This document shows positions 21,296 to 61,051 of a DNA stretch of 64,000 nt, one piece after another. The position numbers and the translations under genes were made by a program. The stretch covers positions 10,786-74,785 of the forward strand of contig JAPLHV010000157.1 of NCBI GenBank assembly GCA_026389455.1. Direction: 5' to 3'. Under the pieces are notes generated by a model. That model worked only from the letters and a program-made list of their open reading frames with translations. It was not told where the DNA came from and made no database searches. Position 1 is the first letter of the stretch. Every line of letters begins with the position of its first letter. The DNA is from Coprothermobacterota bacterium (GTDB lineage: Bacteria; Caldisericota; JANLFM01).

Positions 21296-22005
21296 ATTTA
21301 GTTCCTTCTCATTACAAGTGGGTAACCTACCAGCCTGCGGCAGGAGAAGACATGCTGCCGCAGGCTGTCTAGTCCAGCTACCCTGTAAATAGCCCCCGGC
21401 AGGGTGTTCATGGCGATAATGGTCTTAAAGAGTCTTGTCGACCCTGGGATGGGACCGTGGCGCCCCAGTGCGGCATCCTATTCTCATGGATCTACCGCGC
21501 CGCATCGTTCTTGCACGACTATGCGATCCTCCCCAAAGAGAACCTCCCTCAAGCGGTTTGACTAGACAGCCCCGGCAGCTCGATAGCCCCCGGCAGCCCG
21601 ATAGCCCCCGGCAGCCCGATAGCCCCCGGCAGCTCGATAGCCCCCGGCAGCCCGATAGCCCCCGGCAGCCCGATAGCCCCCGGCAGCTTGATAGCCCCCG
21701 GCAGCTTGATAGCCCCCGGCAGGGTGTTCTGTGACATGCTGCCGCAAGTTGATTTGTTGTCGTCAGCCTTAATAATCCCAGAGACATTGTTTCTAGACAT
21801 GCTGCCGCAGGCTGTTCTGTAGACATGCTGCCGCAGGCTGTTCTGTGCCCACTCGGGATGAGAAAGAGCAAGAGACATGCTGCCGCAAGTAGACATGCTG
21901 CCGCAGGTAGACATGCTGCCGCAGGTAGACATGCTGCCGCAGGTAGACATGCTGCCGCAGGTAGACATGCTGCCGCAGGTAGACATGCTGCCGCAGGCTG
22001 TTCTG
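21296..22005 (+). repeat. Composite non-coding repeat region, copy 1 of the ~140-bp element plus tandem arrays
   Basis: Hairpin at 21331-21367; 18-mer atagcccccggcagggtg at 21389-21406; motif gggaccgtggcgccccagtgcggcat at 21451-21476; eight 18-bp AGCCCCCGGCAGCYCGAT units at 21567-21726; 26-bp and 18-bp AGACATGCTGCCGCAGGT arrays at 21790-22000. Confidence 0.9.
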
Positions 22006-23448: not shown

Positions 23449-24309
23449 TTGATTAGACCGTTCAAGTACAGCAAACCGCGTTTCTTGAGGGAAGCGCTGG
23501 AAGCCTTGGAAAAAGAGAATGCCCGAGCCCTGGCTGGTGGAAGCGATCTTTTGGTAGAGTTGCGGGAAGGGAAGAGCCAAGCAGAGCACATTGTTGATGT
23601 GAAAGCCATTCCTGAGCTAAGTTGTTTCTCGATTGGCAAGGATGGGATCATTATCGGGGGGCAGTTAACACTCAATGAATTAGCAGAATCCAAGGAACTT
23701 GGGCAAACATGTCCTATCTTGGGTGACGCAGCCAGGACGGTGGCCACGCCGCAAGTGCGCAACCGGGCTACCCTGGTTGGAAATCTATGCACTGCTTCCC
23801 CTGCGGCCGATTTGGCGCCTCCACTTTTCGTGTTAGGCGCCGCTGTGGTTGTCGCTTCAAAAGAGGGAGAGCAAAGAATCCCGATCCAGCAGTTCTTCCA
23901 AGGACCGAAAAAGAACTGCTTACAGCCTGGCCAACTGGTCCTGCGGGTAGAGATCCCGCCACGCTCCACTGGACGAGGCGTGTTCATGAAGAAATCGCGC
24001 GTGCGAGGACATGATCTGGCTACCATCAATGTAGCAGGCTGGACAAATCCTCAAGCCGGCATCCTGCGCATTTGCATCGGGGCTTGTGGTCCCACCCCGG
24101 TATTGCTGACGAGCAGCGATGAGCTCTATCAGCGGGCGGTTTGCCGTGATGAGCTTCTTGATGGATTGGCCACGCTCGCCCAGGACCAAATTGCCCCAAT
24201 TGACGACTTGCGGGCATCTGCTGCGTACCGCCGCAGTCTGGTTACTGTTTTCCTGGGTCGGATGGTGCGGATTCTTTTCCCGGAGGAAGGAGGCTGGCCT
24301 CATGTTTGA
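23449..24309 (+). CDS. Mo-hydroxylase FAD-binding subunit (second copy)
   Basis: AGGSDLL motif; TTG start 10 nt after GAGGAG; paralog of the ORF at 1189-2067. Confidence 0.75.
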   Translation: MIRPFKYSKPRFLREALEALEKENARALAGGSDLLVELREGKSQAEHIVDVKAIPELSCFSIGKDGIIIGGQLTLNELAESKELGQTCPILGDAARTVATPQVRNRATLVGNLCTASPAADLAPPLFVLGAAVVVASKEGEQRIPIQQFFQGPKKNCLQPGQLVLRVEIPPRSTGRGVFMKKSRVRGHDLATINVAGWTNPQAGILRICIGACGPTPVLLTSSDELYQRAVCRDELLDGLATLAQDQIAPIDDLRASAAYRRSLVTVFLGRMVRILFPEEGGWPHV

Positions 24310-24832
24310 TGAAACCCCACAGAACACCCTGCCGGGGGCTATCAAGCTGCCGGGGGCTGTTTACACGATCAGCGTTGAAGTAAACGGGAAAGCATGCACC
24401 GAGGAGGCGCCTGCTCAGATGACTTTGCTGCAATTCCTGCGCGAACGGCTATTTTTGACCGGGGCCAAGGAGGGTTGCGGAGTAGGGGAGTGTGGCGCCT
24501 GCACGGTGCTTCTAAATGGGCGAGCTGTTGATGCCTGTTTAGTCCTGGCAGTGGAGGCAGACCAGGCCAGTGTCCGCACGGTGGAAGGGGAAGCCAGGGA
24601 TGGAGAATTGACTCTCCTTCAGCGAGCCTTCATCGAGCACGGCGCGGTGCAATGCGGCTTCTGCACTTCGGGAATGCTTTTATCGGCACAGAGCTTGTTG
24701 GAGAGTAACCCTCATCCCAACAGAGAAGAGATCGTAGAAGCCATCTCCGGCAACCTTTGCCGCTGTACCGGCTACGTGCAGATTCTGGAGGCGATTGAAG
24801 CGGTTGGAGAGGGAATGGAGGAGGGCGGATGA
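24302..24832 (+). CDS. Mo-hydroxylase [2Fe-2S] subunit (second copy); N-terminal ~20 aa encoded by the dispersed repeat
   Basis: CGVGECGACTV, CGFCTSGM and CRCTGY motifs; ATG 24302 overlaps the upstream stop (ATGTTTGA); residues 6-17 (TLPGAIKLPGAV) are encoded by the CACCCTGCCGGGGGCTAT repeat. Confidence 0.75.
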   Translation: MFDETPQNTLPGAIKLPGAVYTISVEVNGKACTEEAPAQMTLLQFLRERLFLTGAKEGCGVGECGACTVLLNGRAVDACLVLAVEADQASVRTVEGEARDGELTLLQRAFIEHGAVQCGFCTSGMLLSAQSLLESNPHPNREEIVEAISGNLCRCTGYVQILEAIEAVGEGMEEGG

Positions 24833-27258
24833 GCGCTGATCAGGATTACAAATACATCGGCAAAGGGATCTCCCGCCTGGATGGGCCGGAGAAAGTAACC
24901 GGCAGCGCCATGTTCGTACACGACATGACCCTGCCGGGGATGCTCTATGGCAAGATGGTGAAGTCTCCCCACGCTTGCGCGCGCATCGTTTCCATCGATA
25001 TCAGCGAAGCGGAGAAGTCGCCGGGCGTGCGCGCTGTTCTCGTCGGTAGAGAGCTGCCCTACAAGGTTGGCATCTACATGATCGACAAAGACATCCTGGC
25101 CAAAGAGGTAGCCCGCTACCATGGAGAGCCGGTGGTGGCAATCGCCGCACAGAGCGAGTTGGCCGCCGAGGAGGCTTGTGCCAAGGTGAAGATTGTGTGG
25201 GAGGCGTTGCCCGCTGTGCTCGACCCGCGCGAAGGATTGTCTCCAGCAGCCCCCTTGGTTCATCCAGAGTTGGCGAGCTATAGCTACATGAAGGGTGTCT
25301 TTCAACCTCAACCCGGCACCAACATCTCCCACCACCAGAAGATCCGTAAGGGTGATGTGGAGATAGCTCTTGCCAAAGCGGACGTAGTTTGGGAAGCCAA
25401 GTTCTACAACCCTCCCGTGCAGCATGTTGCCATGGAGACGCACACCTGCATCGCTCAAGCTTTGCCCGGCTCCCAAGTTCAAATCTGGACTTCAGCCCAA
25501 TCTCCCTTCACCGTGCGCAACCTCTTCTCAGCCTGCTTCGGCATCCCTCATCAAAATATCCGTGTCCATGTTCCCTACGTGGGAGGCGGTTTCGGCGGAA
25601 AAGCCGGCATTCACCTGGAGCCGTTGGCATATCTCCTATCCCAAAAAGCGGGAGGGCGTCCAGTCAAACTGACCATGACCCGCGAAGAGGAGTTCGGCGC
25701 CATGCCTTCCCGCCAAGGTCTTTACAGCCAGTTCACCACTGGCGCCACGCGCGAAGGGAAGATCATCTCTTTGGTCGCAAAGTACATTTGGGACGCCGGC
25801 GCCTATGCGGACTATGGGGTAAATGTTGGGCGAGCGGCCTCCTATTCGGGAGCCGGTCCCTACGAAATACCGAACTGCCATATCGATTCTTTGGTGGTCT
25901 ATACCAATAAGGTGTTCGGCACAGCTTATCGCGGCTTCGGCCATTTGGAAGCGCTCTGGGGAATCGAGCGAAACATGGACATCGGCGCTCGCCGGCTTGG
26001 CTTGGACCCAGTGGAGTTCCGCCGGCGCAATGTGTTGCGTCCTGGAGCAAAGACGATTACAGGTGAGACAGTGACCGAGCACACCGGCCGTGTCGACCTC
26101 TGCTTGGAGAAAGTTGCCGAGGAGATCGGCTGGAATGGGATTCAGACGGAGGAGGAGAGGGCACAAGCGATGGCCGGCGGAAAGGTGCGGGGAAAGGGAG
26201 TGGCTCTGCTGCACAAAGCCCCGGCGATGCCTGTCTTCACTTCCAGCGCCGCCCTGCTGAAGTTCAACGAGAATGGCTCGGTGGATCTCCTCACCTCGAT
26301 CATCGACTACGGTCAAGGAACCTACACCGCTCTTGCTCAAGCTGCAGCAGAGGAGTTGAAGATGCCCATCGAGCGGATTCAAGTTCCCTGGGAAAGTGAC
26401 ACTGCTATGACTCCTTATGACTGGCAGACAGTCGCCAGCCGCGGCGCTTTCATGGGCTGCAAGGCAGTGATTGCAGCGGCCCGTGACGCGTTGCAGCAGA
26501 TCAAGGAAACTGCCAGTCAGGTATTGCGGGCGCCGGTGGAAGAGCTGGTGTGCCGGGACGAGGTAGTTTTCGTCGCCCATCGCCCAGAAGAATGCCTTTC
26601 CTATCGAGAGGTAGTGATGGGGTACAGCTACCCCAACGGGAACTCCATCGGTGGACCGGTGATCGGCCGAGGTCACTACATCGCCCAGGGGCTGACCCAT
26701 CTTGACTTGGAAACAGGGCAGGGTTTACCCGCTCTGGATTGGACCTACGGCGCCCATGGGGCAGAGATCGAGGTGGATCTGGACACTGGGGAGATCACCG
26801 TGCTCAACCTGGCTACCGCTCTTGACGTCGGCCAGGTGCTAAACGCCCAATCCCTGCGTGGGCAGATCATCGGCGGCGTGGTGCAAGGGTTGGGGAGCGC
26901 CTTGTTGGAGGAGTTCCGCTTCTCACCCCAAGGCCGGCTGCTGAATGCCGGATTCGTCGATTATAAGATTCCAACCAGCAAGGATCTGCCCAGGAAGATG
27001 AGCCAGCATATAATCCTGACGGAACAGTTGGACGGGCCGTATGGAGCCCGCGGAGTGGCTGAACACCCCATGATATCAGTGCCAGGCGCGATCGGGAATG
27101 CTCTTTATGATGCCCTGGGAATTGATTTCTTCGAGTTGCCCCTGAATGCGGAGCGCGTTTGGCTGGGAATCCAGCGAAAGAGAAGTGAGACCCAGGACAC
27201 CCTGCCGGGGGCTATCAAGTTGCCGCGGGCTATACACTTGGATAAGGGAGGCGCCTGA
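24829..27258 (+). CDS. Mo-hydroxylase molybdopterin-binding large subunit (second copy)
   Basis: 809 aa; GGGFGGKAG motif; ATGA start/stop overlap; last ~20 aa (QDTLPGAIKLPRAIHLDKGGA) are encoded by the dispersed repeat. Confidence 0.85.
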   Translation: MSADQDYKYIGKGISRLDGPEKVTGSAMFVHDMTLPGMLYGKMVKSPHACARIVSIDISEAEKSPGVRAVLVGRELPYKVGIYMIDKDILAKEVARYHGEPVVAIAAQSELAAEEACAKVKIVWEALPAVLDPREGLSPAAPLVHPELASYSYMKGVFQPQPGTNISHHQKIRKGDVEIALAKADVVWEAKFYNPPVQHVAMETHTCIAQALPGSQVQIWTSAQSPFTVRNLFSACFGIPHQNIRVHVPYVGGGFGGKAGIHLEPLAYLLSQKAGGRPVKLTMTREEEFGAMPSRQGLYSQFTTGATREGKIISLVAKYIWDAGAYADYGVNVGRAASYSGAGPYEIPNCHIDSLVVYTNKVFGTAYRGFGHLEALWGIERNMDIGARRLGLDPVEFRRRNVLRPGAKTITGETVTEHTGRVDLCLEKVAEEIGWNGIQTEEERAQAMAGGKVRGKGVALLHKAPAMPVFTSSAALLKFNENGSVDLLTSIIDYGQGTYTALAQAAAEELKMPIERIQVPWESDTAMTPYDWQTVASRGAFMGCKAVIAAARDALQQIKETASQVLRAPVEELVCRDEVVFVAHRPEECLSYREVVMGYSYPNGNSIGGPVIGRGHYIAQGLTHLDLETGQGLPALDWTYGAHGAEIEVDLDTGEITVLNLATALDVGQVLNAQSLRGQIIGGVVQGLGSALLEEFRFSPQGRLLNAGFVDYKIPTSKDLPRKMSQHIILTEQLDGPYGARGVAEHPMISVPGAIGNALYDALGIDFFELPLNAERVWLGIQRKRSETQDTLPGAIKLPRAIHLDKGGA

Positions 27259-28814
27259 TGCAACGCCTCGTCGTGAAGAAAGACCAATACCGCGACTCGG
27301 TTTCCCTGATGCAGCTCTCATTGGAGCTGAAGGAAGGGGCGGGTCTGGAGGAAGCATTCGTGGCGATGGGCGTCCCCGCCAACCGGGAAATCCTCGCCAA
27401 GATGGGCATTTCCAAGGATCAGTTGGATGGGGTTGGCCCCAATGATCTGCTGATTGCCCTCTTGGCGGAAGATGACGCGTCGATCGAAAAAGCTTTGCTA
27501 GCCATCCCAGCATTGATGGAGGGAACCTGCGCGCAACCCGAAGGAGGCGAAGCCTACCAGCCGCGCACTCTTGAGCAAGCGCTGCGCCAACTTCCTCAGG
27601 CCAATCTGGTGCTGATCTCCAATCCGGGTCCCTATGCCTCTGGTGAAGCGAGAAGGGCCTTGGAGAAAGGGCTCCACGTGATGATCTTCTCGGACAATGT
27701 GCCCCTCGAGGAGGAGATCGCTCTGAAGAAACTGGCCCAGCAGCGCGGTCTTCTATTGATGGGTCCGGATTGCGGCACCGCATTGCTCAACGGCAAACCT
27801 CTTTGTTTCGCCAACGTCGTGCCATCCGGAGCGATCGGCATCGTTGGCGCCTCTGGCACCGGAATTCAGGAAGTCAGTTGCGCCATCGCCCGGTTAGGAG
27901 AAGGGGTTTCCCAAGCCATCGGTACGGGCGGACGCGATTTGAGCCGGGAAGTGGGCGGCTTGATGGTGGCTGAAGGGATTAAGGCGTTGGCCCAAGATTC
28001 GCAGACTCAAGTCATCGTGGTGATCTCTAAACCGCCCGCCCCGGAAGTAGCCAAACGGGTCACTGACCAGTTGGTCTCCTGTGGAAAACCTAGCGTGGTC
28101 TGTTTTATTGGGGAAAAACAACAATCCAACGAGGGAACCCTCTGGTTCGCAGGCAGTCTCGCTATGGCTGCCTCTTCGGCTGTCGCCCTTCGCCGCGGGG
28201 AAACACCCGGTCCACTCATTCAGGATGATAACCTGTTGGAGCGAATCGCCACCGAGGAAACTTCCGGGATGAGTGAGAAGCAGCGCTTCCTGCGCGGACT
28301 CTATACCGGGGGCACCCTGGCTGATGAAGCCATTTGCCTGCTGGAGCAGGAAGTTGGCCCTATCTATTCCAACATCCATAAAGAAAAGGAGTTCCAGTTG
28401 ACAGATCCAACCCGCTCGCGGGAGAACACGATCATCGATTTGGGAGATGATTATTTTACCCGAGGGAAGCCGCACCCAATGATTGATCCTTCTGGGCGGG
28501 CCACTCGGATGATAGAGGAGGCGGAAGATCCTGAAGTGGCTGTGCTCTTATTGGACCTGGTCTTGGGATATGGATCGCACCCCGATCCGGCTGGAGCGAT
28601 CTACTCGGCAGTGACTGGAGCAAAAGAAGCGGCTCGCGCCAGGGGCGGGCATTTGGCGGTGATCGCCTCCATCACCGGAACCGCCGGCGATCCGCAAGGG
28701 CTGCAGCGCCAGCGGGAAACTCTGGAAAGGGCTGGGTGCCGCGTGATGGCTTCCAACTGGGAGGCTGCCACCCTGGTTGAACGCATCCTGCAAGATCGGG
28801 CGGTGCGGTCATGA
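27258..28814 (+). CDS. fdrA: FdrA-like protein (CoA-binding / succinyl-CoA-synthetase-alpha-like fold)
   Basis: N-terminus KKDQYRDSVSLMQLS...MGVPANREIL matches the E. coli FdrA N-terminus as recalled from memory; ATG overlaps the upstream stop. Confidence 0.65.
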   Translation: MQRLVVKKDQYRDSVSLMQLSLELKEGAGLEEAFVAMGVPANREILAKMGISKDQLDGVGPNDLLIALLAEDDASIEKALLAIPALMEGTCAQPEGGEAYQPRTLEQALRQLPQANLVLISNPGPYASGEARRALEKGLHVMIFSDNVPLEEEIALKKLAQQRGLLLMGPDCGTALLNGKPLCFANVVPSGAIGIVGASGTGIQEVSCAIARLGEGVSQAIGTGGRDLSREVGGLMVAEGIKALAQDSQTQVIVVISKPPAPEVAKRVTDQLVSCGKPSVVCFIGEKQQSNEGTLWFAGSLAMAASSAVALRRGETPGPLIQDDNLLERIATEETSGMSEKQRFLRGLYTGGTLADEAICLLEQEVGPIYSNIHKEKEFQLTDPTRSRENTIIDLGDDYFTRGKPHPMIDPSGRATRMIEEAEDPEVAVLLLDLVLGYGSHPDPAGAIYSAVTGAKEAARARGGHLAVIASITGTAGDPQGLQRQRETLERAGCRVMASNWEAATLVERILQDRAVRS

Positions 28815-30259
28815 GCGTGGTCGACCTTTTCGGGCAATCCTTGCAAGTGATCAACATCGGTCTAGAGTCATTCGCCCAGAACCTCCGACAGGAGAGAGTG
28901 CCAGTGGTCCAGATGGACTGGCGGCCGCCGGCGGCTGGGGCGGAGGGAGTAGGGGAGACACCCTTGCGCATTGACCGCAAACAAGCCAACCGGGAAGCCG
29001 TCGACCGCTTGCTGCGCGGGCTGCCCGTCTTGACGGGCGTCTCCACAGCTGGAGCAGTGATCCCCGGGATGCGCAAGGATCTCTTCTTGCATGCCGGACC
29101 TCCCATCAGTTGGGAACGGATGTGCGGACCGATGCGGGGGGCAGTGATCGGTGGGATCCTCTTCGAAGGGCTGGCGGCGAGCGAGGAAGATGCCGAGCAA
29201 CTGGCCGCCTCCGGGGCGATAGCCTTCGAGCCCTGCCATGAACACGACGCTGTGGGACCGATGGCAGGCGTTACCACCTGGAGCATGCCGGTATGGGTGG
29301 TAGAGAACCGCACCTTCGGCAACCGCGCCTACTGCACCTTGAACGAGGGACTTGGAAAGGTGTTGCGCTACGGCGCCTACGCTCCTCCGGTCATCGAACA
29401 TTTGCGCTGGATGGCGGAGGAGTTGGGACCGGTCTTGGCTTTGACGATGGAGCGTCATGGGCCGTTGGACCTACGCGCGCTGATCGCTCAGGCCCTGCAG
29501 ATGGGCGATGAAGGTCACAATCGAAGTCGTGCCGGCACCTCTCTACTGATCCGCGAATTGGCGCCCGAGTTGGTTCGCCTGAAAGTGAAGCGAAAGAAAC
29601 TATCTGAAGTTCTCCGCTTTCTTCATAGCAACGACCATACCTTTCTCAATCTTTCCATGCCTTCGGCCAAGTGCATGCTGGATGCAGCCAACGGTGTGGA
29701 GGGCAGCTCGATGTTGGTGACTATGACCCGCAATGGCACGGATTTCGGCATTCGGCTGGCCGGCCTCCCCGAGCGCTGGTTCACCGCGCCAGCCAACTTG
29801 GTGCGCGGCCTCTATTTTCCCGGATACAGCGAATCGGACGCGGCCCTTGACATCGGCGACTCAGCCATCACCGAGACAGCCGGGCTGGGGGGGTTCGCCA
29901 TGGCCGCTGCTCCTGCCATCGTCCAATTCGTCGGCGGAACCCCGCAGGATGCTCTGCGCCTGACCCAGGAGATGTATGAAATCACCTTGGCGGAAAGCCA
30001 GAGCTGGCAGATCCCTAACCTCGGCTTCCGTGGAACGCCCAGCGGGATCGACCTCTTCCGTGTGCTGACCAGCGGCATCCTTCCATCCATCAATACGGGC
30101 ATCGCCCATAAAGATCCAGGCGTGGGAATGATCGGGGCCGGTCTCGTACAGCCGCCCTGGAACTGTTTTCAGTCTGCCTACCAGGCTTACGTGCAGCAGT
30201 ACGCCGCTACTCTTAGCGGAAATGGAGATAACCAACGAATCAAGGAGGAGAAACAATGA
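28811..30259 (+). CDS. DUF1116 (YlbE-like) protein
   Basis: 482 aa; conserved tail GLGGFAMAAAPAI...NTGIAH shared with the ORF at 1-394; located after the fdrA-like gene as in the E. coli fdrA-ylbE arrangement. Confidence 0.55.
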   Translation: MSVVDLFGQSLQVINIGLESFAQNLRQERVPVVQMDWRPPAAGAEGVGETPLRIDRKQANREAVDRLLRGLPVLTGVSTAGAVIPGMRKDLFLHAGPPISWERMCGPMRGAVIGGILFEGLAASEEDAEQLAASGAIAFEPCHEHDAVGPMAGVTTWSMPVWVVENRTFGNRAYCTLNEGLGKVLRYGAYAPPVIEHLRWMAEELGPVLALTMERHGPLDLRALIAQALQMGDEGHNRSRAGTSLLIRELAPELVRLKVKRKKLSEVLRFLHSNDHTFLNLSMPSAKCMLDAANGVEGSSMLVTMTRNGTDFGIRLAGLPERWFTAPANLVRGLYFPGYSESDAALDIGDSAITETAGLGGFAMAAAPAIVQFVGGTPQDALRLTQEMYEITLAESQSWQIPNLGFRGTPSGIDLFRVLTSGILPSINTGIAHKDPGVGMIGAGLVQPPWNCFQSAYQAYVQQYAATLSGNGDNQRIKEEKQ

Positions 30260-31128
30260 AGCTGATTGACCTGACTATTCCTTTCGGCATTGCCACCCCG
30301 CCCTGGCCGACCTATGAGCCGCTGCAGTTGAAGTATTTTAAACGGTTGGCGCCCAACGGCGCCAACGGGCAACTGCTGACCACATCCAACCACGTCGGCA
30401 CTCACCTCGACGGGGAGATTCACTTCTACACACCGGGAAAAGACATCGCCTCGCTCTCCCTCGATTTCCTGGTCCATGAGGGAGCGGTCGTAGACCTTTC
30501 CGATTGCACGACTGACTACGACATCTACACTTCAAAACAGGTGGAGGAACGGGTAGAGGTCCGTGAAGGAGATATCTTGATCATTCACACCGGCTTCCAC
30601 CATTACGGCTGGGATCAACCCACGGCCAACGAGGTCCGTTACATGGTGCAGCACCCAGGCCCGGATGTGGAGTTCGTGGAGTGGGCAAAAGCCAAGAAGC
30701 TGCGTTGGATCGGGGTGGATTGCGGAAGCGCCGACCATCCCATGAATACCATCATCCGCAATTGGATGCCTGTTCAAGCCAAGGAGGCAGACGCTTTTTT
30801 CCGCCAGAAGTTCGGCGTCTCTCTGGAGGAGCGCTTTTCCCCGGATAAGTATCAGATGATGCACACACGGCTTTTCAGCCAAGGCATTATCCACGCCGAA
30901 TGCGTGGCCGGCGACATCGATCTGCTGCTCAACCAGCGGGCCATTATCGGATGTTTCCCCTGGCGTTTCGTGGACGGTGAATCCAGCATCAGTCGGATTG
31001 TGGCGATGGTCGAGGATGGACGTTACGAAGAATTGATGAAGAAGAAGGCGATGGCCTCGCTGACTCGCTTCGGCGACGTGGCAGGCGCCAGGAACCCCTG
31101 GATCCACGAACAGGCGCGAAAAAAGTAG
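30256..31128 (+). CDS. Cyclase-family metal-dependent hydrolase (kynurenine formamidase-like)
   Basis: HVGTHLDGEIH motif; ATGA overlap with the upstream gene; paralog of the ORF at 421-1182. Confidence 0.7.
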   Translation: MKLIDLTIPFGIATPPWPTYEPLQLKYFKRLAPNGANGQLLTTSNHVGTHLDGEIHFYTPGKDIASLSLDFLVHEGAVVDLSDCTTDYDIYTSKQVEERVEVREGDILIIHTGFHHYGWDQPTANEVRYMVQHPGPDVEFVEWAKAKKLRWIGVDCGSADHPMNTIIRNWMPVQAKEADAFFRQKFGVSLEERFSPDKYQMMHTRLFSQGIIHAECVAGDIDLLLNQRAIIGCFPWRFVDGESSISRIVAMVEDGRYEELMKKKAMASLTRFGDVAGARNPWIHEQARKK

Positions 31129-32324: not shown

Positions 32325-32712
32325 GGTTCCTTTTCATTTCAAGTGGGCATCCTACCAGCCTGCGGCAGCATGTCTTCTCCTGCCGCAGGCTGTTTAGTCC
32401 AGCTTCCCTGTAAATAGCCCCCGGCAGGGTGTTCATGGCGATGATGGTCTTTGAAGAGTCTTGTCGGCCCTGGGATAGTCCCAGGGATAGTCAAGCCCTT
32501 TTGCTCTTGAGGTCTCACCGACCCCGATCTGGTTTGCGCCGGAATGGTCCTCGTAGGGGCGGGTTTGAAACCCGCCCACGCACGAGCTGTCTCGGCATAG
32601 TGATGACTCATTCTCCAGAACACCCTGCCGGGGACTCCTAGGGGCGACGTATGCGTCGCCCCTAGGAGGGCTATCGAGCTGCCGCAAGTTGACTTGTTGT
32701 CGCTTACCCACC
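32325..32712 (+). repeat. Composite non-coding repeat region, copy 2 of the ~140-bp element (direct orientation relative to copy 1)
   Basis: Region 32345-32480 is about 90% identical to 21318-21455; hairpin at 32356-32392 with inverted loop; 18-mer at 32414-32431; 10-bp-stem hairpin at 32557-32577; perfect 13-bp IR at 32637-32666; shared end motif CTGCCGCAAGTTGAYTTGTTGTCG. Confidence 0.85.
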
Positions 32713-38926: not shown

Positions 38927-39004
<78 letters not shown>

Positions 39005-42583: not shown

Positions 42584-43884
42584 GCCTCCTTCAAGAGTTC
42601 TCCTACTACATCATAAACTAATCCTCGGATAATGCGAACGGTCAGGTAGGCGCCCGGTTCGGCATTTGTTTGTGCCCTGGGACCGCCGCACCCCAGTGCG
42701 GCATCGTCTTGTGCTTGTATCCTTACCCAGGCATCGATCTCCGGAGCGTCGCGCGTCGACCGGCAGAGCAACGTTCCCGGTTCTTCCGGGTCAGGATGAT
42801 CCGCCAGAACGCGTATCTGCGATCCTACGAGATGTTGGTTCTGCTCTGAATAGATTCGCTCCTGCAGTTTCCAAAGAGCATCGTAACGGCGCTCTACTTC
42901 ATCGGAGGGGAGCTGTCCGGGCAGGTGGGCAGCCTCGGCGCCTCCCTCTGCGTAGAAGGGAAAGAGAGCGAGACGATCGAAACGAAGCTCCTCGACAAAA
43001 TCGTACAGCTCTTGAAATTCACTGTCTGTTTCCGAGGGGAAGCCGGCGATCAGCGACGTTCGCAAGGCAGCTTCCGGCCATTCTGTTCGGGCGACATCCA
43101 GAACGCGCCGCACTTCAGCCTCCCCGCCCGGCCGTTTCATGAGACCGAGGATACGATCATCGATGTGTTGTACCGGGATATCCAGGTAGGGAACCACTGC
43201 CGGTATCTCGCGCAGTCGTCGCAGAAAATCGCGGTCCACTCGTTGCGGGAAGAGATAGAGGAGACGGACCCAGGGGAAGCCGAGATCGGCGATCTCCGCC
43301 ACCAAGTCAAGGTAGCGTGGCGACCCGTAAAGATCGATCCCCCAGAGGGTGGCGTCTTGAGCCACCAGCACGATCTCTTGAATTCCGGCTTGGCGTAGCC
43401 CCCGCGCCTCTTCCAGCAGATACTCGCGCGGAAGCGAACGAAATGGCCCGCGCAGCGAGGGAATCAGGCAAAAGGAACAGTTGCGGCTGCAGCCTTCAGC
43501 GATTTTCAGATAAGCGTACGGAAAAGTAGTCACCAGTCGCGGCGCCTGGCGTGCCTCTAATCGGGCAACCTCGCTGAGATCTTGAAAGGAATGCACCTCC
43601 GGAAAAGCTTCAGCCAAGCCGGTGCGATCTCGCTGCACCAGACAACCTGTCACCACTACCTGCCGATGGCGGCCGCTGGGGTGATTCTCTACAGCATCCT
43701 CGATAGCAGCCCAGCTTTCCTGGGTGGCTGGTTCGATGAAAGTACAGGTGTTGACGATTAACAAATCCGCTTCTTCGGGTTGACCTACCACCCAGCCGCG
43801 CTGGGCATAGTCGGCAAGGATCCGCTCACCGTCCACGCGGTTCTTTGGACAGCCTAGGTTGATCAGACCAACGATGCCCCTCAA
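42580..43884 (-). CDS. rimO: Radical-SAM methylthiotransferase, RimO/MiaB family
   Basis: UPF0004 N-domain (INLGCPKN), radical-SAM core CSRNCSFC and a TRAM-like C-terminus; the C-terminal region contains the dispersed motif (see findings). Confidence 0.8.
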   Translation of the reverse strand: MRGIVGLINLGCPKNRVDGERILADYAQRGWVVGQPEEADLLIVNTCTFIEPATQESWAAIEDAVENHPSGRHRQVVVTGCLVQRDRTGLAEAFPEVHSFQDLSEVARLEARQAPRLVTTFPYAYLKIAEGCSRNCSFCLIPSLRGPFRSLPREYLLEEARGLRQAGIQEIVLVAQDATLWGIDLYGSPRYLDLVAEIADLGFPWVRLLYLFPQRVDRDFLRRLREIPAVVPYLDIPVQHIDDRILGLMKRPGGEAEVRRVLDVARTEWPEAALRTSLIAGFPSETDSEFQELYDFVEELRFDRLALFPFYAEGGAEAAHLPGQLPSDEVERRYDALWKLQERIYSEQNQHLVGSQIRVLADHPDPEEPGTLLCRSTRDAPEIDAWVRIQAQDDAALGCGGPRAQTNAEPGAYLTVRIIRGLVYDVVGELLKEA

Positions 43885-44630
43885 GGAGCGGGGTACTGGA
43901 AAATGCTGGGCAACGGCGCAGCCACTGGGTTGCCATCGACGCTCAATTCAAATTTAACAGGGTCATCGAAGGTGATGGTGAAAGTCCATTGGCGAAAGGT
44001 GTAGGTTGTGCCGGCTTCCATGGTCTGCTCGAAAATGACGCGATCCGCGCTCTGAACCAAAATATGACCGCTTTCCAGCGCCGTCACCCGCACCTCAACC
44101 TCGTTCCCGGTGGGAAGTGGGCTGCCTGTCGGTAAGTTGGCAGTAGGGCTGGTTGTTGCGGGGGGCGTAATAGACAGCGAAGCGGTGGAAGTGGGAGTGA
44201 CGGTCGGGGTGTTGGTTGGAGGCGGAGCGGTGGAGGGAAGCAAGATGTTGGCGATGATCAAACCGCCTACCACCAATACAAGAATGATAGCGATGATCAC
44301 CAGGGCGCGCGTCCAGGGATTGCTGCGGCGGGTAAATGCTTCCACCGAGGGAGTCGGTATGCGCTCAGGGGATTTTTCTATTTGATACAAAGGGATTGCT
44401 TGACGGTTGAACGCTTCGACGAGAGGCTCAGGATCAAGGCCCAAGAACTCGCCATATTTGCGCACGTAGGCTCGCGCGTAGACGAGCCCTGGCATCACCA
44501 GGAAGTTATTCTCCTCGATGGCTTGCAAGTAACGCAAGGAGATACGCGTAACTTGCTCTACCTCTTCCAGTATGATGCCACGGGAGAGCCGCAGTTCCTT
44601 GAGAGCTGTTCCGATGTCCATCTCGGCCAT
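43881..44630 (-). CDS. rodZ: HTH (XRE-type) membrane protein, RodZ-like
   Basis: N-terminal HTH, a single TM segment, a Pro/Thr-rich linker and a C-terminal DUF4115-like domain. Confidence 0.6.
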   Translation of the reverse strand: MAEMDIGTALKELRLSRGIILEEVEQVTRISLRYLQAIEENNFLVMPGLVYARAYVRKYGEFLGLDPEPLVEAFNRQAIPLYQIEKSPERIPTPSVEAFTRRSNPWTRALVIIAIILVLVVGGLIIANILLPSTAPPPTNTPTVTPTSTASLSITPPATTSPTANLPTGSPLPTGNEVEVRVTALESGHILVQSADRVIFEQTMEAGTTYTFRQWTFTITFDDPVKFELSVDGNPVAAPLPSIFQYPAP

Positions 44631-44725: not shown

Positions 44726-44816
44726 CCCCGCCGGTGGCGTGGTAATATCACCCCGCCGGTGGCGTGGTAATATCACCCTGCCGGGGGCGTGGTAATATCA
44801 CCCTGCCGGGGGCTAT
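44726..44816 (+). repeat. Three tandem 25-bp repeats (CCCYGCCGG-GGCGTGGTAATATCA) ending in the 18-mer
   Basis: Direct reading of the sequence; each unit carries TGGTAATAT, resembling an extended -10 element. Confidence 0.85.
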
Positions 44817-48652: not shown

Positions 48653-49174
48653 ATGAACAAGAACCTGGTCCGGCAATGGGCGAACGTGATCGCCGTCTTG
48701 GCGATGATCGTGATCAACATTCTGGCCAACGCCTTGCCCTTCAACGGGCAAAATACCGGCGCCATCTCGGACCGATTTGCCGTCTTCTTCGTGCCGGCCG
48801 GCTACGTTTTCTCCATTTGGGGTTTGATCTACATCGGCCTGCTCCTTTTCGCCATTTACCAAGCTCTTCCCAGCCAGCGCGACAACCCGCGTCTGGTCAA
48901 GATTGGCTATTGGTTTGCCTTCAGCAGCCTGGCTAACATTGCTTGGCTCTTCCTCTGGCATTATCTGCAGTTCACCAGGACCATCTTCGCCATGCTGGCC
49001 CTGCTGATCTCGCTCCTGGTTATCTATCTGCGACTGGGGATTGGAAAAGAAAACGTTCCTTCCAGCGAGCGATGGATGGTGCAGACGCCTTTCAGCATCT
49101 ACCTGGGATGGATCTCGGTGGCCACTATTGCCAATAGTAGCCAGCCTGCGGCAGCATGTCTTCTAATTGCTTGA
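48653..49174 (+). pseudogene. Tryptophan-rich multi-TM membrane protein; reading frame ends inside a half-hairpin repeat, and the downstream ORF 49167-49454 continues as a membrane protein in another frame
   Basis: The C-terminus ...SSQPAAACLLIA* is encoded by CAGCCTGCGGCAGCATGTCTTC at 49142-49163. The hydrophobic ORF 49167-49454 overlaps it by 8 nt in a different frame. Confidence 0.35.
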
Positions 49175-54441: not shown

Positions 54442-55299
54442 ATGCAGATTCCTGATTATCACGTCCACCCCGACTACTCCATCGACGCCAAGGGGTCGAT
54501 CCAAAGATACGCCACTACTGCGGCTGCGCGCGGGCTGCCGGAGATATGTTTTACTACCCACCTCGACCTTGATCCGCTTCGAGCTACAGAAGACAGGTGG
54601 ATCCGTGATCGGGGGGAAAGACGAAGCTTCCGCACCCTGAATTGGCTTGACCATTATTGGGAGGATATCGACCGTGCCCAGTCCGAAGTGAACGGGCAAG
54701 TCCTCTTGAAGCACGGATTGGAGATCGATTATTTTCCCGGTTTTGAGACATTCGTCCGACCCGCTCGAGAGTCCTATCCCTGGGACTTTGTCTTGGTCTC
54801 AGTACACTGCCTGGAACACATTGCCATCGCCGGGCAAGAAGAGAGTGGCCCATATTTAGCGAGGCACACCCCGGAGGAAACAGCCGAGGCCTATGTGATG
54901 GCAGTCCGGGATGCTATTGCCAGCGGTTTTGGTCATGCTTTGGCCCATCTTGACTACTTCAAGCGCCAAGTCAGCCCAGGCTTTCGCCCGCGCTTCCTGG
55001 CCGCCCTCGCTCCGCGATTGCCTGAAATCCTTGAACTGCTGCAGCGTGCAGGAATGGCCATGGAGATCAATACGCGCGCCATCCGCACCTATGGGTTGGG
55101 TGAACCATTTCCTGGCACGGAGACGCTTGCGCTGGCGGTCCGCCTGGGTGTTTCCAGAATCACCATCGGCTCGGACAGTCACCGCCCCGAAGAGTTGGGC
55201 AACTGTTTTGATGAAGCCCGCCAGTTTGCTTTAGAGGCCGGCTTTACTACGGCACTCACCTATCAGAAAGGGGAGATCAATGGTTCTTTTCAACTCTAG
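54442..55299 (+). CDS. PHP-family histidinol-phosphatase (HisK/HisJ type)
   Basis: N-terminal DYHVHPDYSIDA metal-binding motif typical of the PHP domain. Confidence 0.7.
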   Translation: MQIPDYHVHPDYSIDAKGSIQRYATTAAARGLPEICFTTHLDLDPLRATEDRWIRDRGERRSFRTLNWLDHYWEDIDRAQSEVNGQVLLKHGLEIDYFPGFETFVRPARESYPWDFVLVSVHCLEHIAIAGQEESGPYLARHTPEETAEAYVMAVRDAIASGFGHALAHLDYFKRQVSPGFRPRFLAALAPRLPEILELLQRAGMAMEINTRAIRTYGLGEPFPGTETLALAVRLGVSRITIGSDSHRPEELGNCFDEARQFALEAGFTTALTYQKGEINGSFQL

Positions 55300-56272
55300 G
55301 CTTTCCTTGACCAGCCTTCCCACTCCGCTGGAAGCGCTCCCTACTCTCTCCCGCCAACTGGGGGTTGAATTATGGATCAAGCGTGATGACCTCACTTCCC
55401 CCGCGGGAGGTGGAAATAAGGTTCGTAAGCTGGAATTCCTGCTGGCTGATGCGAACTCGCGTAAAGCGACTGCGGTCATTACCCTGGGCGCCGTGCAGTC
55501 CAACCATTGCCGTCAAACTGCTCTCTTGGCTGCTAAGCTGGGGCACGAAGCTCACTTGGTCTTGATCGGCGAGGAGCCGATAGATAGACAGGGGAACCTC
55601 TTGCTGGATACCTTATCCGGCGCCACCTTGCACTTTGGAGCGCGAACCTTGGAAGAGGGGCGAGCGATCGCCCAACAGTTGATGGAGACATTGCGGGCAT
55701 GCGGCAAGGAACCCTACCTGATCCCCTATGGAGGTTCCGACCCAATCGGCGTGCAAGGGTATGTGGCTGCCTGGGCCGAACTACAGGAGCAAGCCCAAGC
55801 GCGCTCGCTCTCCTTCGACTGCATCGTCCATGCTTCCTCTTCGGGAGGCACCCAAGCCGGTTTGTTGGTGGGCCAACAGGTCTATGGCGGCAGCGGACAA
55901 GTGATCGGCATCAGCGTGGGGCCGCCCGCGACCACTCTGGCCCGGGAAGTAGCCGCCCTGGCCGGTCAAACCGCTCAAGCCATCGGCTTGGATTCTTTTA
56001 GCCTATCTTCAGCGCCAATTATCCTGGATCAGTACATCGGCCCAGGATACGCGCTCCTCGACGAGACCACCTACGCCGCCATTCGGCGATTGGCGCAGAC
56101 CGAAGCGATCCTTCTCGATCCTGTCTACACAGGGAAAGCGTTCACTGGTTTCCTGCGATTGGCTAGCGAAGGAAGGCTAGGGAAACGCGCCTTGTTCTGG
56201 CATACCGGTGGAGCGCCTGCCCTTTATAGCTACGCCGATCAATTGACAAGCAGTCAGCCTGCGGCAGCATGA
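55280..56272 (+). CDS. PLP-dependent D-cysteine desulfhydrase / ACC-deaminase-family enzyme; last residues encoded by the repeat
   Basis: LPTPLE...IKRDDLT...GGNKVRKLEFLLADA matches the DcyD family N-terminus. The C-terminus SSQPAAA* is encoded by CAGCCTGCGGCAGCATGA. Confidence 0.7.
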   Translation: MVLFNSRLSLTSLPTPLEALPTLSRQLGVELWIKRDDLTSPAGGGNKVRKLEFLLADANSRKATAVITLGAVQSNHCRQTALLAAKLGHEAHLVLIGEEPIDRQGNLLLDTLSGATLHFGARTLEEGRAIAQQLMETLRACGKEPYLIPYGGSDPIGVQGYVAAWAELQEQAQARSLSFDCIVHASSSGGTQAGLLVGQQVYGGSGQVIGISVGPPATTLAREVAALAGQTAQAIGLDSFSLSSAPIILDQYIGPGYALLDETTYAAIRRLAQTEAILLDPVYTGKAFTGFLRLASEGRLGKRALFWHTGGAPALYSYADQLTSSQPAAA

Positions 56273-56400
56273 CAGGACACCCTGCCGGGAGCTATCTACT
56301 TGCCGGGAGCTATCTACTTGCCGGGAGCTTGCCAAACTTGAAAGCCCGCGGCAGCACGATAGCCTGCGGCAGCACGATAGCCTGCGGCAGCAAGACACTG
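56255..56400 (+). repeat. Repeat cluster: half-hairpin, 18-mer, 3x CCGGGAGCTATCTACTTG and 2x CCTGCGGCAGCACGATAG
   Basis: Direct reading of the sequence. Confidence 0.85.
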
Positions 56401-60785: not shown

Positions 60786-60882
60786 TCAATATCATGCTGC
60801 CGCAAGTTATCATTTTCCCCGAAGGCTCAGGAAAATGCAAGCTATTCTCCCCTTTCTTGGGGTGAGCCCTTCAAGCTAGACA

Positions 60883-61051
60883 AGCCCCCGGCAACTTGAT
60901 AGCCCCCGGCAACTTGATAGCCCCCGGCAACTTGATAGCCCCCGGCAACTTGATAGCCCCCGGCAACTTGATAGCCCCCGGCAACTTGATAGCCCCCGGC
61001 ACCCGGCAACTTGATAGCCCCCGGCAACTTGATAGCCCCCGGCAGGGCGAT
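60883..61051 (+). repeat. Tandem array of about nine 18-bp units AGCCCCCGGCAACTTGAT (one 25-bp variant)
   Basis: Direct reading; the track ORF 60896-61942 begins inside it (MIAPGNLIAPGN...), but the true degV start is downstream. Confidence 0.9.

What the first reader, a model, noticed from the sequence alone, without database searches (positions are those of the whole stretch)
24302..27258. Repeat copies are embedded in coding termini and supply the TLPGAIKLPGA peptide at both ends of the large-subunit gene
The second 2Fe-2S subunit begins MFDETPQN-TLPGAIKLPGAV before the conserved core, whereas its paralog at 2064 starts directly at the core. The second Mo subunit ends ...QD-TLPGAIKLPRAIHLDKGGA*, whereas its paralog ends ...HPEKR*. 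Both extensions are encoded by the same 18-mer-derived sequence, and the genes are translationally coupled through overlapping stops and starts that lie in or beside the repeat. The element has therefore been inserted into, or domesticated as, gene junctions without breaking the operon.
Basis: seen in the sequence. Interest (0 to 1): 0.7.

Follow-up and report, generated by a model that had tools for sequence, protein, structure and literature searches.

The report
Selfish 18-base repeat inserted into genes
A short repeated DNA element that litters this uncultured Coprothermobacterota genome has landed in frame in the dispensable first and last codons of two enzyme genes, adding floppy peptide tails that look like tolerated passengers and show no sign of having acquired a function.

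Summary
The 18-mer CTGCCGGGGGCTATCAAG lies inside the 5' end of the 2Fe-2S subunit gene (24323-24361) and the 3' end of the Mo subunit gene (27196-27237). It belongs to a repeat family with 24 near-matches in the window against 0.11 expected.

Six syntenic orthologous loci settle the history. The FeS insert is a 39-nt in-frame insertion after codon 7. It is 21 nt in one relative and absent in four. The Mo insert is a net +35 nt, +53 nt in one relative and absent in four. It shifts the frame for the last codons, so translation runs across the ancestral allF ribosome-binding site to a TGA that overlaps the allF ATG.

The ribosome-binding sites, the start codons and the FAD/FeS overlap are ancestral and were not supplied by the repeat. 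The encoded peptides are not conserved. The FeS insert is predicted to be disordered.

The same element fills intergenic regions. It also sits in frame inside RarA, glycogen synthase, sigma-54 and thiolase, and in the last codons of several other genes in sister MAGs. It is absent from slightly more distant relatives.

Verdict: a lineage-specific, copy-number-variable interspersed repeat whose insertions are tolerated. It behaves like the Rickettsia RPE and mycobacterial MIRU elements. "Inserted" is supported and "domesticated" is not.

The parts
23449..24309 (+). FAD-binding subunit gene of the second xanthine-dehydrogenase-family operon. Its TGA (24307-24309) overlaps the FeS gene start.
   Evidence: Pfam FAD_binding_5 and CO_deh_flav_C. 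The overlap is conserved in orthologous loci.
24282..24293 (+). Ancestral ribosome-binding site (GGAGGAAGGAGG) of the FeS gene, 8 nt before the ATG at 24302.
   Evidence: Present at the same spacing before GTG/ATG in six loci, with or without the repeat.
24302..24832 (+). 2Fe-2S subunit gene (176 aa) carrying the N-terminal insertion.
   Evidence: Pfam Fer2 and Fer2_2. The NCBI protein P0001 is 100% identical over its full length.
24323..24361 (+). Repeat copy 1. A 39-nt in-frame insertion (AACACC + CTGCCGGGGGCT ATCAAG CTGCCGGGGGCT + GTT) encoding N8-V20 (NTLPGAIKLPGAV).
   Evidence: Absent in L002, L003, L052, L053 and L056. Present as 21 nt (one unit) in L001. pLDDT is below 50 for residues 1-17 with no secondary structure there, and the first predicted strand starts at residue 20.
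24829..27258 (+). Molybdopterin-binding large subunit gene (809 aa; orthologs without the insert are 793 aa).
   Evidence: Pfam Ald_Xan_dh_C, MoCoBD_1 and MoCoBD_2; the last domain ends at residue 721.
27196..27237 (+). Repeat copy 2. GACACC + CTGCCGGGGGCT ATCAAG + TTGCCGCGGGCT ATACAC, a net +35 nt relative to empty sites. Encodes DTLPGAIKLPRAIH.
   Evidence: Absent in L001, L053, L002, L003 and L056. Present with three units (+53 nt) at the same site in L052.
27238..27258 (+). Frameshifted read-through tail (LDKGGA*) that crosses the ancestral allF ribosome-binding site (AAGGGAGG, 27244-27251). It ends at TGA 27256-27258, which overlaps the allF ATG at 27258-27260.
   Evidence: In empty-site orthologs the gene ends GGA-TAG, 12 nt before the ATG. 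The same DNA read in the shifted frame gives the tail.
27258..28814 (+). allF/fdrA-like gene (CoA-ligase family), downstream partner in the operon.
   Evidence: Pfam Ligase_CoA and CoA_binding. HMA_AllF_N in orthologs.
21326..21999 (.). Intergenic region made almost entirely of the same repeat family: a composite hairpin copy (21326-21436), an 8.5-unit array of the 18-mer on the minus strand (21570-21722), and sister-family arrays CTGCCGCAGGT+AGACATG (21794-21997).
   Evidence: The region is about 90 bp in L001, L002 and L003 and about 750 bp here.
32345..32700 (.). Second composite copy downstream of the xerC-like gene, plus a copy whose 12-mer core is interrupted by a 35-nt perfect palindrome.
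   Evidence: Hairpin fold z = -3.95.
56253..56392 (.). Intercistronic copy made of 3 units facing 3 sister-family units in inverted orientation. It supplies the last codons (QPAAA) and the TGA stop of gene 55280..56272.
   Evidence: Fold z = -2.99.
60870..61045 (-). 9-unit array of the same 18-mer in the divergent region between the enolase and degV genes.
49143..49154 (-). Single sister-family core inside the last 10 codons of ORF 48653..49174 (…SSQPAAACLLIA*).

Best explanation
The two peptides are by-products of a lineage-specific interspersed DNA repeat.

Architecture. The repeat is built from an 18-nt module: a 12-nt core CTGCCG-NNN-GCT plus a 6-nt spacer. The spacer is RACACC in the first module and usually ATCRAG afterwards, and the element often ends GTCTAG. 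Modules occur singly, in tandem arrays of up to 9, and as inverted pairs.

Spread. The family has expanded in a small clade of uncultured Coprothermobacterota. Copies persist wherever they do little harm. That means intergenic DNA, the poorly conserved first and last codons of genes, and occasional surface loops inside genes. The 18-nt period is a multiple of 3 and five of the six reading frames of the unit are open. Gain or loss of units therefore never shifts the frame and rarely creates a stop.

In this operon.
1. One copy inserted after codon 7 of the FeS subunit gene, in the unstructured leader before the first beta strand. It stayed in frame, first as 21 nt and then as 39 nt after gaining one unit.
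2. Another copy inserted 6 codons before the stop of the Mo subunit gene. At +35 nt it shifts the frame, so the ribosome reads across the old TAG position and the allF ribosome-binding site. It stops at an out-of-frame TGA that already overlapped the allF ATG.

Shown and inferred. Shown: the insertions, their polymorphism, the unit-number variation, and the ancestral nature of the ribosome-binding sites and starts. Inferred: that the peptides are translated, neutral and disordered. Unit-number change by replication slippage is also inferred. Unknown: the mechanism that seeds new copies. The filled/empty comparisons show no inverted terminal repeats and no target-site duplication. They do show short matches between the target and the element's first module, which points to a homology- or sequence-guided process.
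For: - Family and excess over chance.
- Lineage restriction: the genome scan found at least 48 loci, almost all in three related MAGs (JAPLHW01, CAYXFH01, JBAXQG01). There are zero cores in the syntenic loci L002, L003, L053 and L056.
- Filled versus empty sites at both gene ends.
- Unit-number variation at one site: FeS 1 unit vs 2 units; Mo 2 vs 3 units; AllG/cyclase junction 1 unit (L052) vs 4 units (L001).
- Peptides not conserved.
- Insert lies outside the fold: Pfam Fer2 starts at residue 25 and MoCoBD_2 ends at residue 721. The paralog alignments stop before the inserts. AF2 gives pLDDT below 50 for residues 1-17.
- Same element in frame in unrelated proteins. RarA: an 18-aa gap against E. 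coli RarA 3PVS and against 89-96% identical orthologs, with the empty site recovered. Glycogen synthase. Sigma-54, thiolase, lysine aminomutase, RuvC, a MutS-domain protein and a DEAD helicase.
- All 10 element sites in the window avoid gene interiors, which make up 76% of the window (p about 6e-7 under random placement).
- The in-gene copies have no RNA structure beyond shuffled controls (z = -0.6 and +0.6).
Against: - No transposase, RAYT or other mobilising gene was seen. Only the window and fragments of the MAGs could be examined.
- The Mo-site insert is shared by the window and L052 but absent from L001, the window's closest relative over the FeS-Mo genes. This needs either recombination or loss, or independent insertion at a hot spot. 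The locus is a recombination mosaic, which makes the first option plausible but unproven.
- Translation of the inserts has not been observed.
- A weak regulatory effect cannot be excluded. For example, the GGGGG run could act as an internal Shine-Dalgarno-like site.
Confidence: 0.8

Rival explanations
1. Domesticated peptide tags. On this view the TLPGAIKLPGA stretches have been recruited as functional linkers or tags on the FeS and Mo subunits, for example for subunit assembly, cofactor insertion or localisation.
For: The same peptide frame (LPGAIK) is used at both gene ends, and in RarA, sigma-54 (LPGA) and lysine aminomutase (LPGAIE). Both inserts keep the genes open.
Against: - Four of six orthologous operons lack each insert.
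- The peptides differ in sequence and length between the lineages that carry them.
- The Mo tail includes a frameshifted read-through of a ribosome-binding site.
- The same DNA is mostly intergenic and occurs in both orientations. Other frames are also used: SPRQLD, QPAAA and AGGY.
- The FeS insert is predicted to be disordered.
Confidence: 0.04
2. Cis-acting regulatory element at operon junctions. The repeat would tune expression of adjacent cistrons through mRNA stability, ribosome pausing or standby binding at the GGGGG run, or binding of a protein to the 12-mer core. REP/BIME elements do this in some E. coli operons.
For: - Elements concentrate at gene boundaries.
- Intergenic composite copies and inverted arrays fold into strong hairpins (z = -4.1, -4.0 and -3.0).
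- Three junctions of this one operon are occupied in one lineage or another.
- The core contains an SD-like G-run. In TTG-variant units this is followed 9 nt later by TTG (read from the sequence).
Against: - The two in-gene copies have no hairpin partner and no structure beyond shuffles.
- Occupancy of each junction is polymorphic among close relatives that share the same operon.
- The boundary bias is equally what purifying selection against disruptive insertions would produce.
- Internal in-frame copies in RarA and GlgA are hard to explain as junction regulators.
Confidence: 0.1
3. Uptake- or recombination-signal-like sequence. The 12-mer core would be a DUS/USS-like or Chi-like signal that accumulates by biased uptake or recombination, not by transposition. 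The copies in genes would be carried in with recombined DNA.
For: - Density is about 0.6 per kb, with inverted pairs downstream of genes.
- The locus is a recombination mosaic. The left edge of the tract, which is 94-97% identical to L001, falls exactly at the FeS element.
- Four of about 14 gene-embedded copies are in DNA repair or recombination genes: RarA, RuvC, a MutS-domain protein and a DEAD helicase.
Against: - Tandem arrays of up to 9 units and conserved head and tail motifs are not features of known uptake sequences.
- New copies appear as clean insertions of 21-54 nt, not as point-mutational convergence.
- The right edge of the recombination tract is about 190 bp away from the Mo element.
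- No competence genes were seen in the window.
- The repair-gene enrichment rests on a very small sample.
Confidence: 0.05
4. Artefact. The extensions would be annotation or assembly errors, either because the true FeS start lies after the repeat or because the MAG contig is chimeric at the repeats.
For: Public annotations of the orthologs choose inconsistent, shorter starts of 150-155 aa. The identity profile changes at the FeS element.
Against: - There is no in-frame ATG, GTG or TTG between the repeat and codon 40.
- A conserved ribosome-binding site and start lie upstream in all six loci.
- Independent assemblies (L001 and L052) carry inserts at the same sites.
- The repeat (about 40 nt) is shorter than typical assembly k-mers (inference).
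Confidence: 0.02

Closest known systems
Rickettsia palindromic elements (RPE)
   Same: A short interspersed repeat that inserts in frame into unrelated protein-coding genes, including conserved housekeeping enzymes. It adds a peptide segment while leaving the host protein apparently intact, and it also occurs in intergenic DNA (RPE properties as summarised in PMC10969869).
   Different: RPEs are about 100-150 bp palindromic units from ten families in Rickettsia. The element here is built of 18-nt modules, with 21-54 nt in genes and up to about 160 nt in arrays. Its unit number varies. The in-gene copies are not palindromic, and it occurs in Coprothermobacterota. No sequence relationship to RPEs was tested or is claimed.
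Mycobacterial interspersed repetitive units (MIRU-VNTR)
   Same: Tandemly repeated units whose length is a multiple of 3, sitting at cistron junctions of operons. Reading frames run through them and overlap the neighbouring gene's stop or start. Copy number varies between strains (PMC12548453 for insertion at start codons with a -4 overlap).
   Different: MIRU units are 46-101 bp (from my own knowledge of Supply et al. 1997) and carry their own small ORF coupled to the downstream gene. Here the unit is 18 nt, the copy is fused into the host gene itself, and the overlaps and ribosome-binding sites are ancestral or accidental.
REP/BIME (REPIN) elements of proteobacteria
   Same: High-copy short GC-rich motifs in intergenic regions. 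They are often found in inverted pairs that form hairpins downstream of genes, and they combine with other motifs into mosaic composites.
   Different: The core is only 12 nt with a 3-bp internal dyad. It forms direct tandem arrays and enters coding sequence. No RAYT transposase could be looked for genome-wide.
DNA uptake sequences (Neisseria DUS, Pasteurellaceae USS)
   Same: A 12-nt conserved core at about 0.6 per kb, inverted pairs behind genes, and occurrence in tolerant parts of coding sequence.
   Different: This family has tandem arrays, conserved head and tail motifs, and spread by insertion. There is no evidence of competence.

Membership tests
Rickettsia palindromic elements (RPE) | In-frame insertion into protein-coding genes with the host ORF preserved | tested here: met
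   FeS +39 nt, RarA +54 nt and sigma-54 +21 nt, all in frame. Orthologs without the insert were recovered.
Rickettsia palindromic elements (RPE) | Unit of about 100-150 bp with palindromic (hairpin) potential | tested here: not met
   The in-gene copies are 39 and 42 nt. Their folds are no better than shuffles (z = -0.6 and +0.6).
Rickettsia palindromic elements (RPE) | Sequence membership in one of the RPE families | not tested
   No RPE consensus was available to compare. The host phylum is different and no relationship is claimed.
MIRU-VNTR | Tandem units whose number varies between related genomes | tested here: met
   FeS site 1 vs 2 units, Mo site 2 vs 3 units, AllG site 1 vs 4 units.
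MIRU-VNTR | Unit length 46-101 bp carrying its own small ORF, with start and stop overlapping the flanking genes | tested here: not met
   The unit is 18 nt. The copies are fused into the host ORFs. The FAD/FeS overlap is ancestral and the Mo/allF overlap arises from a frameshift.
REP/BIME (REPIN) | Imperfect palindrome of 20-40 nt, extragenic, often in inverted pairs | tested here: inconclusive
   Some intergenic copies are inverted pairs with strong hairpins. The unit itself is a 12-nt core with a 3-bp dyad, arrays are direct, and copies occur in genes.
REP/BIME (REPIN) | Cognate RAYT (Y1 transposase) in the genome | not testable with these tools
   Only the 64-kb window and fragments of related MAGs were available. 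None of the 46 window ORFs scanned against Pfam is a transposase; the only recombinase is a conserved xerC-like phage-integrase-family gene.
MITE | Terminal inverted repeats and target-site duplication | tested here: not met
   Filled/empty pairs at the FeS, Mo, AllG and RarA sites show neither. There is only 3-5 nt of similarity between the target and the element head. The sigma-54 site is flanked by AACACCCTG on both sides, and this is part of the element itself.
DNA uptake sequence | Over-represented 9-12-mer at about 1 per kb throughout the genome | tested here: met
   0.64 cores per kb in the window against 0.005 per kb in unrelated loci.
DNA uptake sequence | Preferential uptake by a competence system | not testable with these tools
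   The organism is uncultured and no competence genes are in the window.
Xanthine dehydrogenase / CO dehydrogenase family (host genes) | FAD_binding_5 + CO_deh_flav_C, Fer2 + Fer2_2, and Ald_Xan_dh_C + MoCoBD_1/2 subunits encoded in one operon | tested here: met
   Pfam hits for 23449..24309, 24302..24832 and 24829..27258.

The most novel reading that the evidence does not exclude
This may be an independently evolved counterpart of the Rickettsia RPE phenomenon in a deep-branching phylum. It would be a coding-compatible selfish repeat made of an expandable 18-nt module, a multiple of 3 with five of six frames open. It seeds at sites that resemble its own first module and colonises conserved genes in frame (RarA, glycogen synthase, sigma-54, the XDH-family subunits). 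It then grows or shrinks without ever breaking the frame. If so, it is a natural generator of peptide insertions and terminal extensions, and possibly a marker of recombination boundaries.
Probability: 0.45. Interest if true: 0.55.

Novelty: new variant of a known kind. Interest (0 to 1): 0.4.

Why it matters
For annotation. Start and stop calls around these repeats are unreliable. Public annotations of the orthologous FeS genes pick three different short starts, and terminal or internal LPGAIK-type peptides should not be read as functional motifs.

For biology. The family offers a second, structurally different example of selfish DNA living inside protein-coding genes. Clean filled and empty sites exist among sister genomes, and the unit number varies. 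Both features could be used to study how proteins tolerate insertions and how such repeats spread. The enzyme operon itself appears to work as in its relatives.

Tried and rejected
1. Protein search with a synthetic (LPGAIK)n peptide. The second returned nothing useful, because E-values against 5.8 billion sequences are too strict for a 45-aa repeat.
2. Rfam at gathering thresholds. Only a tRNA at 38930-39004 was found, with no known RNA family over any repeat.
3. Literature search for repeats in Coprothermobacterota. Nothing relevant was found.
4. Exact look-up of the window's own FeS protein in the contig index. It is not on record.
5. Metagenome scan with the FeS protein, intended to give a population view of the two sites. 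Only one close relative was recovered (L056, both sites empty) and the rest were 70% identical or less. This still shows that the N-terminal peptide is absent elsewhere.
6. The idea that sense-orientation insertions always use the LPGAIK frame. It was rejected because the DEAD helicase N-terminus (L006/L029) and the RuvC C-terminus use the AGGY frame.
7. The idea that the two direct copies bound a repeat-mediated exchange cassette. It was weakened because the right edge of the tract that is highly identical to L001 lies about 190 bp before the Mo element.
8. CRISPR, iteron/centromere arrays and a decayed hexapeptide-repeat gene. These were considered and dropped. The arrays have no unique spacers. 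There are dozens of chromosomal sites in both orientations. There are conserved non-coding head and tail motifs with CTAG stops.

Full report
**1. The observation**

Reading the window confirms the coordinates and the peptides.
- The 2Fe-2S subunit gene starts at ATG 24302, 8 nt after GGAGGAAGGAGG. It reads MFDETPQ-NTLPGAIKLPGAV-YTISVEVNG.
- The 18-mer CTGCCGGGGGCTATCAAG is at 24329-24346 and a partial second unit runs to 24358.
- The Mo subunit ORF (24829..27258) ends ...SETQDTLPGAIKLPRAIHLDKGGA*. The same 18-mer is at 27202-27219, followed by a degenerate second unit (27220-27237).
- The two copies share an identical 23-mer.
- The paralogous subunits at 2064..2561 and 6021..8324 align only to the cores, at 53% and 35% identity, and lack both extensions.
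- Pfam assigns the three genes to the xanthine-dehydrogenase/CO-dehydrogenase family. The downstream genes are AllF/FdrA-like, AllG and a cyclase.

The 18-mer is far from chance. The window holds 24 matches with up to 3 mismatches against 0.11 expected.

**2. The repeat family**

Tandem-repeat and core searches show a family built from an 18-nt module.
- Each module is a 12-nt core CTGCCG-NNN-GCT (mostly GGG or CAG in the middle) plus a 6-nt spacer.
- The first spacer is RACACC ("head", usually preceded by CAG). In a sister family it is GACATG. Later spacers are ATCAAG, ATCGAG and similar. Many copies end GTCTAG.

Modules take several forms in the window:
- single copies;
- direct arrays of up to 9 units (21570-21722 and 60883-61044, both on the minus strand);
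- inverted pairs or inverted arrays (21332/21355, 32357/32380, 56282-56390).

The composite intergenic copies fold into strong hairpins (z about -4). The inverted arrays give z = -3.

The window has ten sites. Six are purely intergenic and four overlap the first or last 22 or fewer codons of a gene. None is in a gene interior, although interiors make up 76% of the window (p about 6e-7 if placement were random). No Rfam family matches. The rest of the window is ordinary housekeeping DNA with no transposase.

**3. Source and distribution**

The FeS protein is 100% identical to an NCBI protein from a "Coprothermobacterota bacterium" MAG.

Almost all are in three related MAGs (JAPLHW01 from Lake Pavin sediment, CAYXFH01 and JBAXQG01). 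About five single hits lie elsewhere, which is roughly the chance expectation for a 19-mer.

Core density per kb:
- window: 0.64
- closest syntenic relatives L001 and L052: 0.33 and 0.30
- somewhat more distant syntenic loci L002, L003, L053 and L056: 0
- 612 kb of unrelated loci: 0.005

. The family is young and confined to one clade.

**4. History of the two in-gene copies**

Homologs of the FeS subunit led to five further syntenic loci with the same gene order: OAD-beta, FAD, FeS, Mo, AllF, AllG, cyclase, XerC-like. A sixth came from the metagenome scan.

*FeS start.*
- L002, L003, L053, L056 and L052 read (M)L[DH]E..[HL]-YTI[SR]VEVN with no insert.
- L001 has 21 extra nucleotides (GALPRAV, one unit).
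- The window has 39 extra nucleotides (NTLPGAIKLPGAV, two units).
- All loci keep the same ribosome-binding site, the same GTG/ATG start position and the same overlap with the FAD stop codon.
- The start is therefore upstream of the repeat. Downstream, the next in-frame start is codon 40, which would remove the first two beta strands.

*Mo stop.*
- L001, L053, L002, L003 and L056 end ...HERIG*, ...HEQIG* or ...DEQSR* at GGA-TAG (AGA-TAG in L002, L003 and L056). The allF ribosome-binding site GGGAGG follows, and the ATG is 12 nt after the stop.
- The window has a net +35 nt and L052 a net +53 nt (three units) at the same position.
- Neither length is a multiple of 3. The old stop is read as G-GAT-AAG (G-GAT-AGG in L052), and translation continues through the ribosome-binding site to the TGA of the pre-existing GTGATG. 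This produces a 1-nt stop/start overlap.
- The repeat therefore supplies neither the ribosome-binding site nor the start. The new overlap is an accident of the frameshift.

*A third junction of the same operon.* The AllG/cyclase junction carries a one-unit antisense copy in L052 (AllG ends ...SSQPAAACLDNQPIKEDHR*). In L001 it carries a four-unit copy whose CTAG tail truncates AllG to 468 aa.

**5. Are the peptides functional?**

Nothing suggests it.
- They are absent from most orthologous operons.
- Where two lineages share a site, they differ in sequence and length.
- They lie outside the Pfam domains and outside the paralog alignments.
- In an AlphaFold2 model of the FeS subunit (mean pLDDT 64, a shallow alignment), residues 1-17 have pLDDT below 50 and no secondary structure. 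The first strand begins at residue 20.
- The in-gene copies show no RNA structure beyond shuffles.
- Among 80 more distant FeS homologs from metagenomes, the alignments almost always begin at query residue 12-27. The N-terminal peptide is therefore not found elsewhere.

**6. The phenomenon is general in this clade**

A census of 101 elements in the window and fetched loci used a codon-usage filter. Pfam and PDB comparisons followed. Together they show copies embedded in real genes.

| Position | Host gene | Detail |
|---|---|---|
| Internal, in frame | RarA/MgsA (L031) | DT[LPGAIKLPGAIKLPGA]G; an 18-residue gap against E. coli RarA 3PVS and against 89-96% identical orthologs; empty site GGACAG\|GGCTAC recovered |
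| Internal, in frame | Glycogen synthase (L008) | five antisense units, [SPRQLD]5 |
| Internal, in frame | Sigma-54 (L032) | DNT[LPGA]VNT |
| Internal, in frame | Thiolase (L042) | NM[LPQA]V |
| C-terminal | Lysine 5,6-aminomutase alpha | |
| C-terminal | RuvC | |
| C-terminal | MutS-domain protein | |
| C-terminal | Window genes 48653..49174 and 55280..56272 | |
| N-terminal | DEAD-box helicase (two MAGs) | MTGHPAGGY..., with the ATG lying in the element head |

The unit is open in five of six frames (read from the sequence). LPGAIK is the commonest sense frame but is not the only one used.

**7. Mechanism**

Unit-number differences at single sites fit replication slippage (inference).

How new sites are seeded is not established. 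Four filled/empty pairs show no terminal inverted repeats and no target-site duplication. The targets do share 3-5 nt with the element's head: CACA at FeS, CA.GAAC at Mo, ACAG at RarA. At the sigma-54 site the 21-nt insert is flanked on both sides by AACACCCTG. This hints at a sequence- or homology-guided process. No partner enzyme could be searched for genome-wide.

**8. Comparison with known systems**

- Functionally the closest are the Rickettsia palindromic elements, which insert in frame into many unrelated genes (PMC10969869).
- Also close are the mycobacterial MIRUs, tandem intercistronic repeats whose frames overlap neighbouring genes (PMC12548453).
- REP/BIME elements resemble the intergenic mosaic and hairpin forms.
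- DNA uptake sequences resemble the core in density and in forming inverted pairs.

The element fails at least one defining feature of each. It lacks the size and palindromy of an RPE, the unit size and own ORF of a MIRU, and the terminal inverted repeats and target-site duplication of a MITE. Its arrays and its spread by insertion do not fit a DUS. I therefore class it as a new variant of a known kind, not as a member of any of these families.

**9. Verdict**

The reading "inserted into gene junctions without breaking the operon" is supported. "Domesticated" and "provides coupling or the ribosome-binding site" are not supported. Interest is moderate. The operon is ordinary, but the repeat family is an undescribed, tidy example of coding-compatible selfish DNA, with filled and empty sites in hand.

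Noticed in passing
window 24326-27009 compared with L001: The locus is a recombination mosaic. The window is 94-97% identical to L001 only from the head of the FeS repeat (about 24326) to about 27000. It is 81-89% identical on both sides. From 27009 onward the window differs from L001 and L052 at the same positions. The left breakpoint coincides with the repeat, and the right one lies about 190 bp before the Mo repeat.
   Followed up: partly
window 32610-32672: A family core is split (CTGCCGGGG | GCT) by a 35-nt perfect palindrome, ACTCCTAGGGGCGACG-TATG-CGTCGCCCCTAGGAG. This looks like a nested insertion of a second small palindromic element. A related TAGGGGCGACG motif abuts an array in L016.
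   Followed up: no
window 32553-32582: GTAGGGGCGGGTTTGAAACCCGCCCAC is a GC-rich hairpin preceded by GTAG, reminiscent of classical REP elements recognised by RAYT transposases. It is absent from L001 and L002 at this site.
   Followed up: no
window 21332-21366 and 32357-32391: Two copies of a composite element of about 110 bp share a perfect 12-bp-stem hairpin (AGCCTGCGGCAG ... CTGCCGCAGGCT). The 11-nt loop is inverted between them (GAGAAGACATG vs CATGTCTTCTC), as if the hairpin had flipped by recombination between its arms. Both lie about 60-70 nt after the stop of a plus-strand gene and have no T-run.
   Followed up: partly
window 44726-44813: A 25-bp tandem repeat (CCCCGCCGGGGGCGTGGTAATATCA, 3.5 copies) ends in a canonical family core. 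It appears to be a variant with a longer spacer, and it lies upstream of the divergently transcribed HTH gene 43881..44630.
   Followed up: no
L001 10533-10620; L052 8720-8760: The AllG/cyclase junction of the same operon carries an antisense sister-family copy. L001 has four units, and the CTAG tail creates a premature stop (AllG 468 aa instead of 482-486). L052 has one unit that is read through as SSQPAAACLDNQ... The window is empty at this site.
   Followed up: yes
L031 3666-3719; L008 1062-1145; L032 2260-2280; L042 728-748: The same repeat sits in frame inside conserved proteins of sister MAGs: RarA/MgsA (an 18-aa insert between MGYGQ and GYLYGHD), glycogen synthase (five antisense units, SPRQLD x5), sigma-54 and thiolase.
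   Followed up: yes
L031, L033, L021, L006/L029: Four of about 14 gene-embedded copies lie in DNA repair or recombination genes (RarA, RuvC, a MutS-domain protein, a DEAD helicase). This recalls the reported bias of Neisseria uptake sequences towards genome-maintenance genes. The sample is too small to test.
   Followed up: no
L001 4673-4723; L052 2831-2872 (public annotations P0002, P0009, P0010): Public annotations of the orthologous FeS genes start at different internal codons (150, 154 and 155 aa; one starts at an ATC codon). All of these loci have a conserved ribosome-binding site and GTG further upstream, overlapping the FAD stop. These are probably start-codon mis-calls, possibly provoked by the repeat.
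   Followed up: partly
window 55280-56272 and 48653-49174: Two more window genes end inside family copies (...SSQPAAA* and ...SSQPAAACLLIA*). For 55280..56272 the TGA stop itself lies in the element.
   Followed up: partly
window 1189-8324 and 23449-31128: The window holds two paralogous XDH-family gene sets. The first is interleaved with amidohydrolase, aminotransferase and nitroreductase genes and is followed by a Bmp/PnrA-type ABC transporter. The second is fused to allF/allG (oxamate carbamoyltransferase-like) and a cyclase. This suggests two different N-heterocycle catabolic modules.
   Followed up: no
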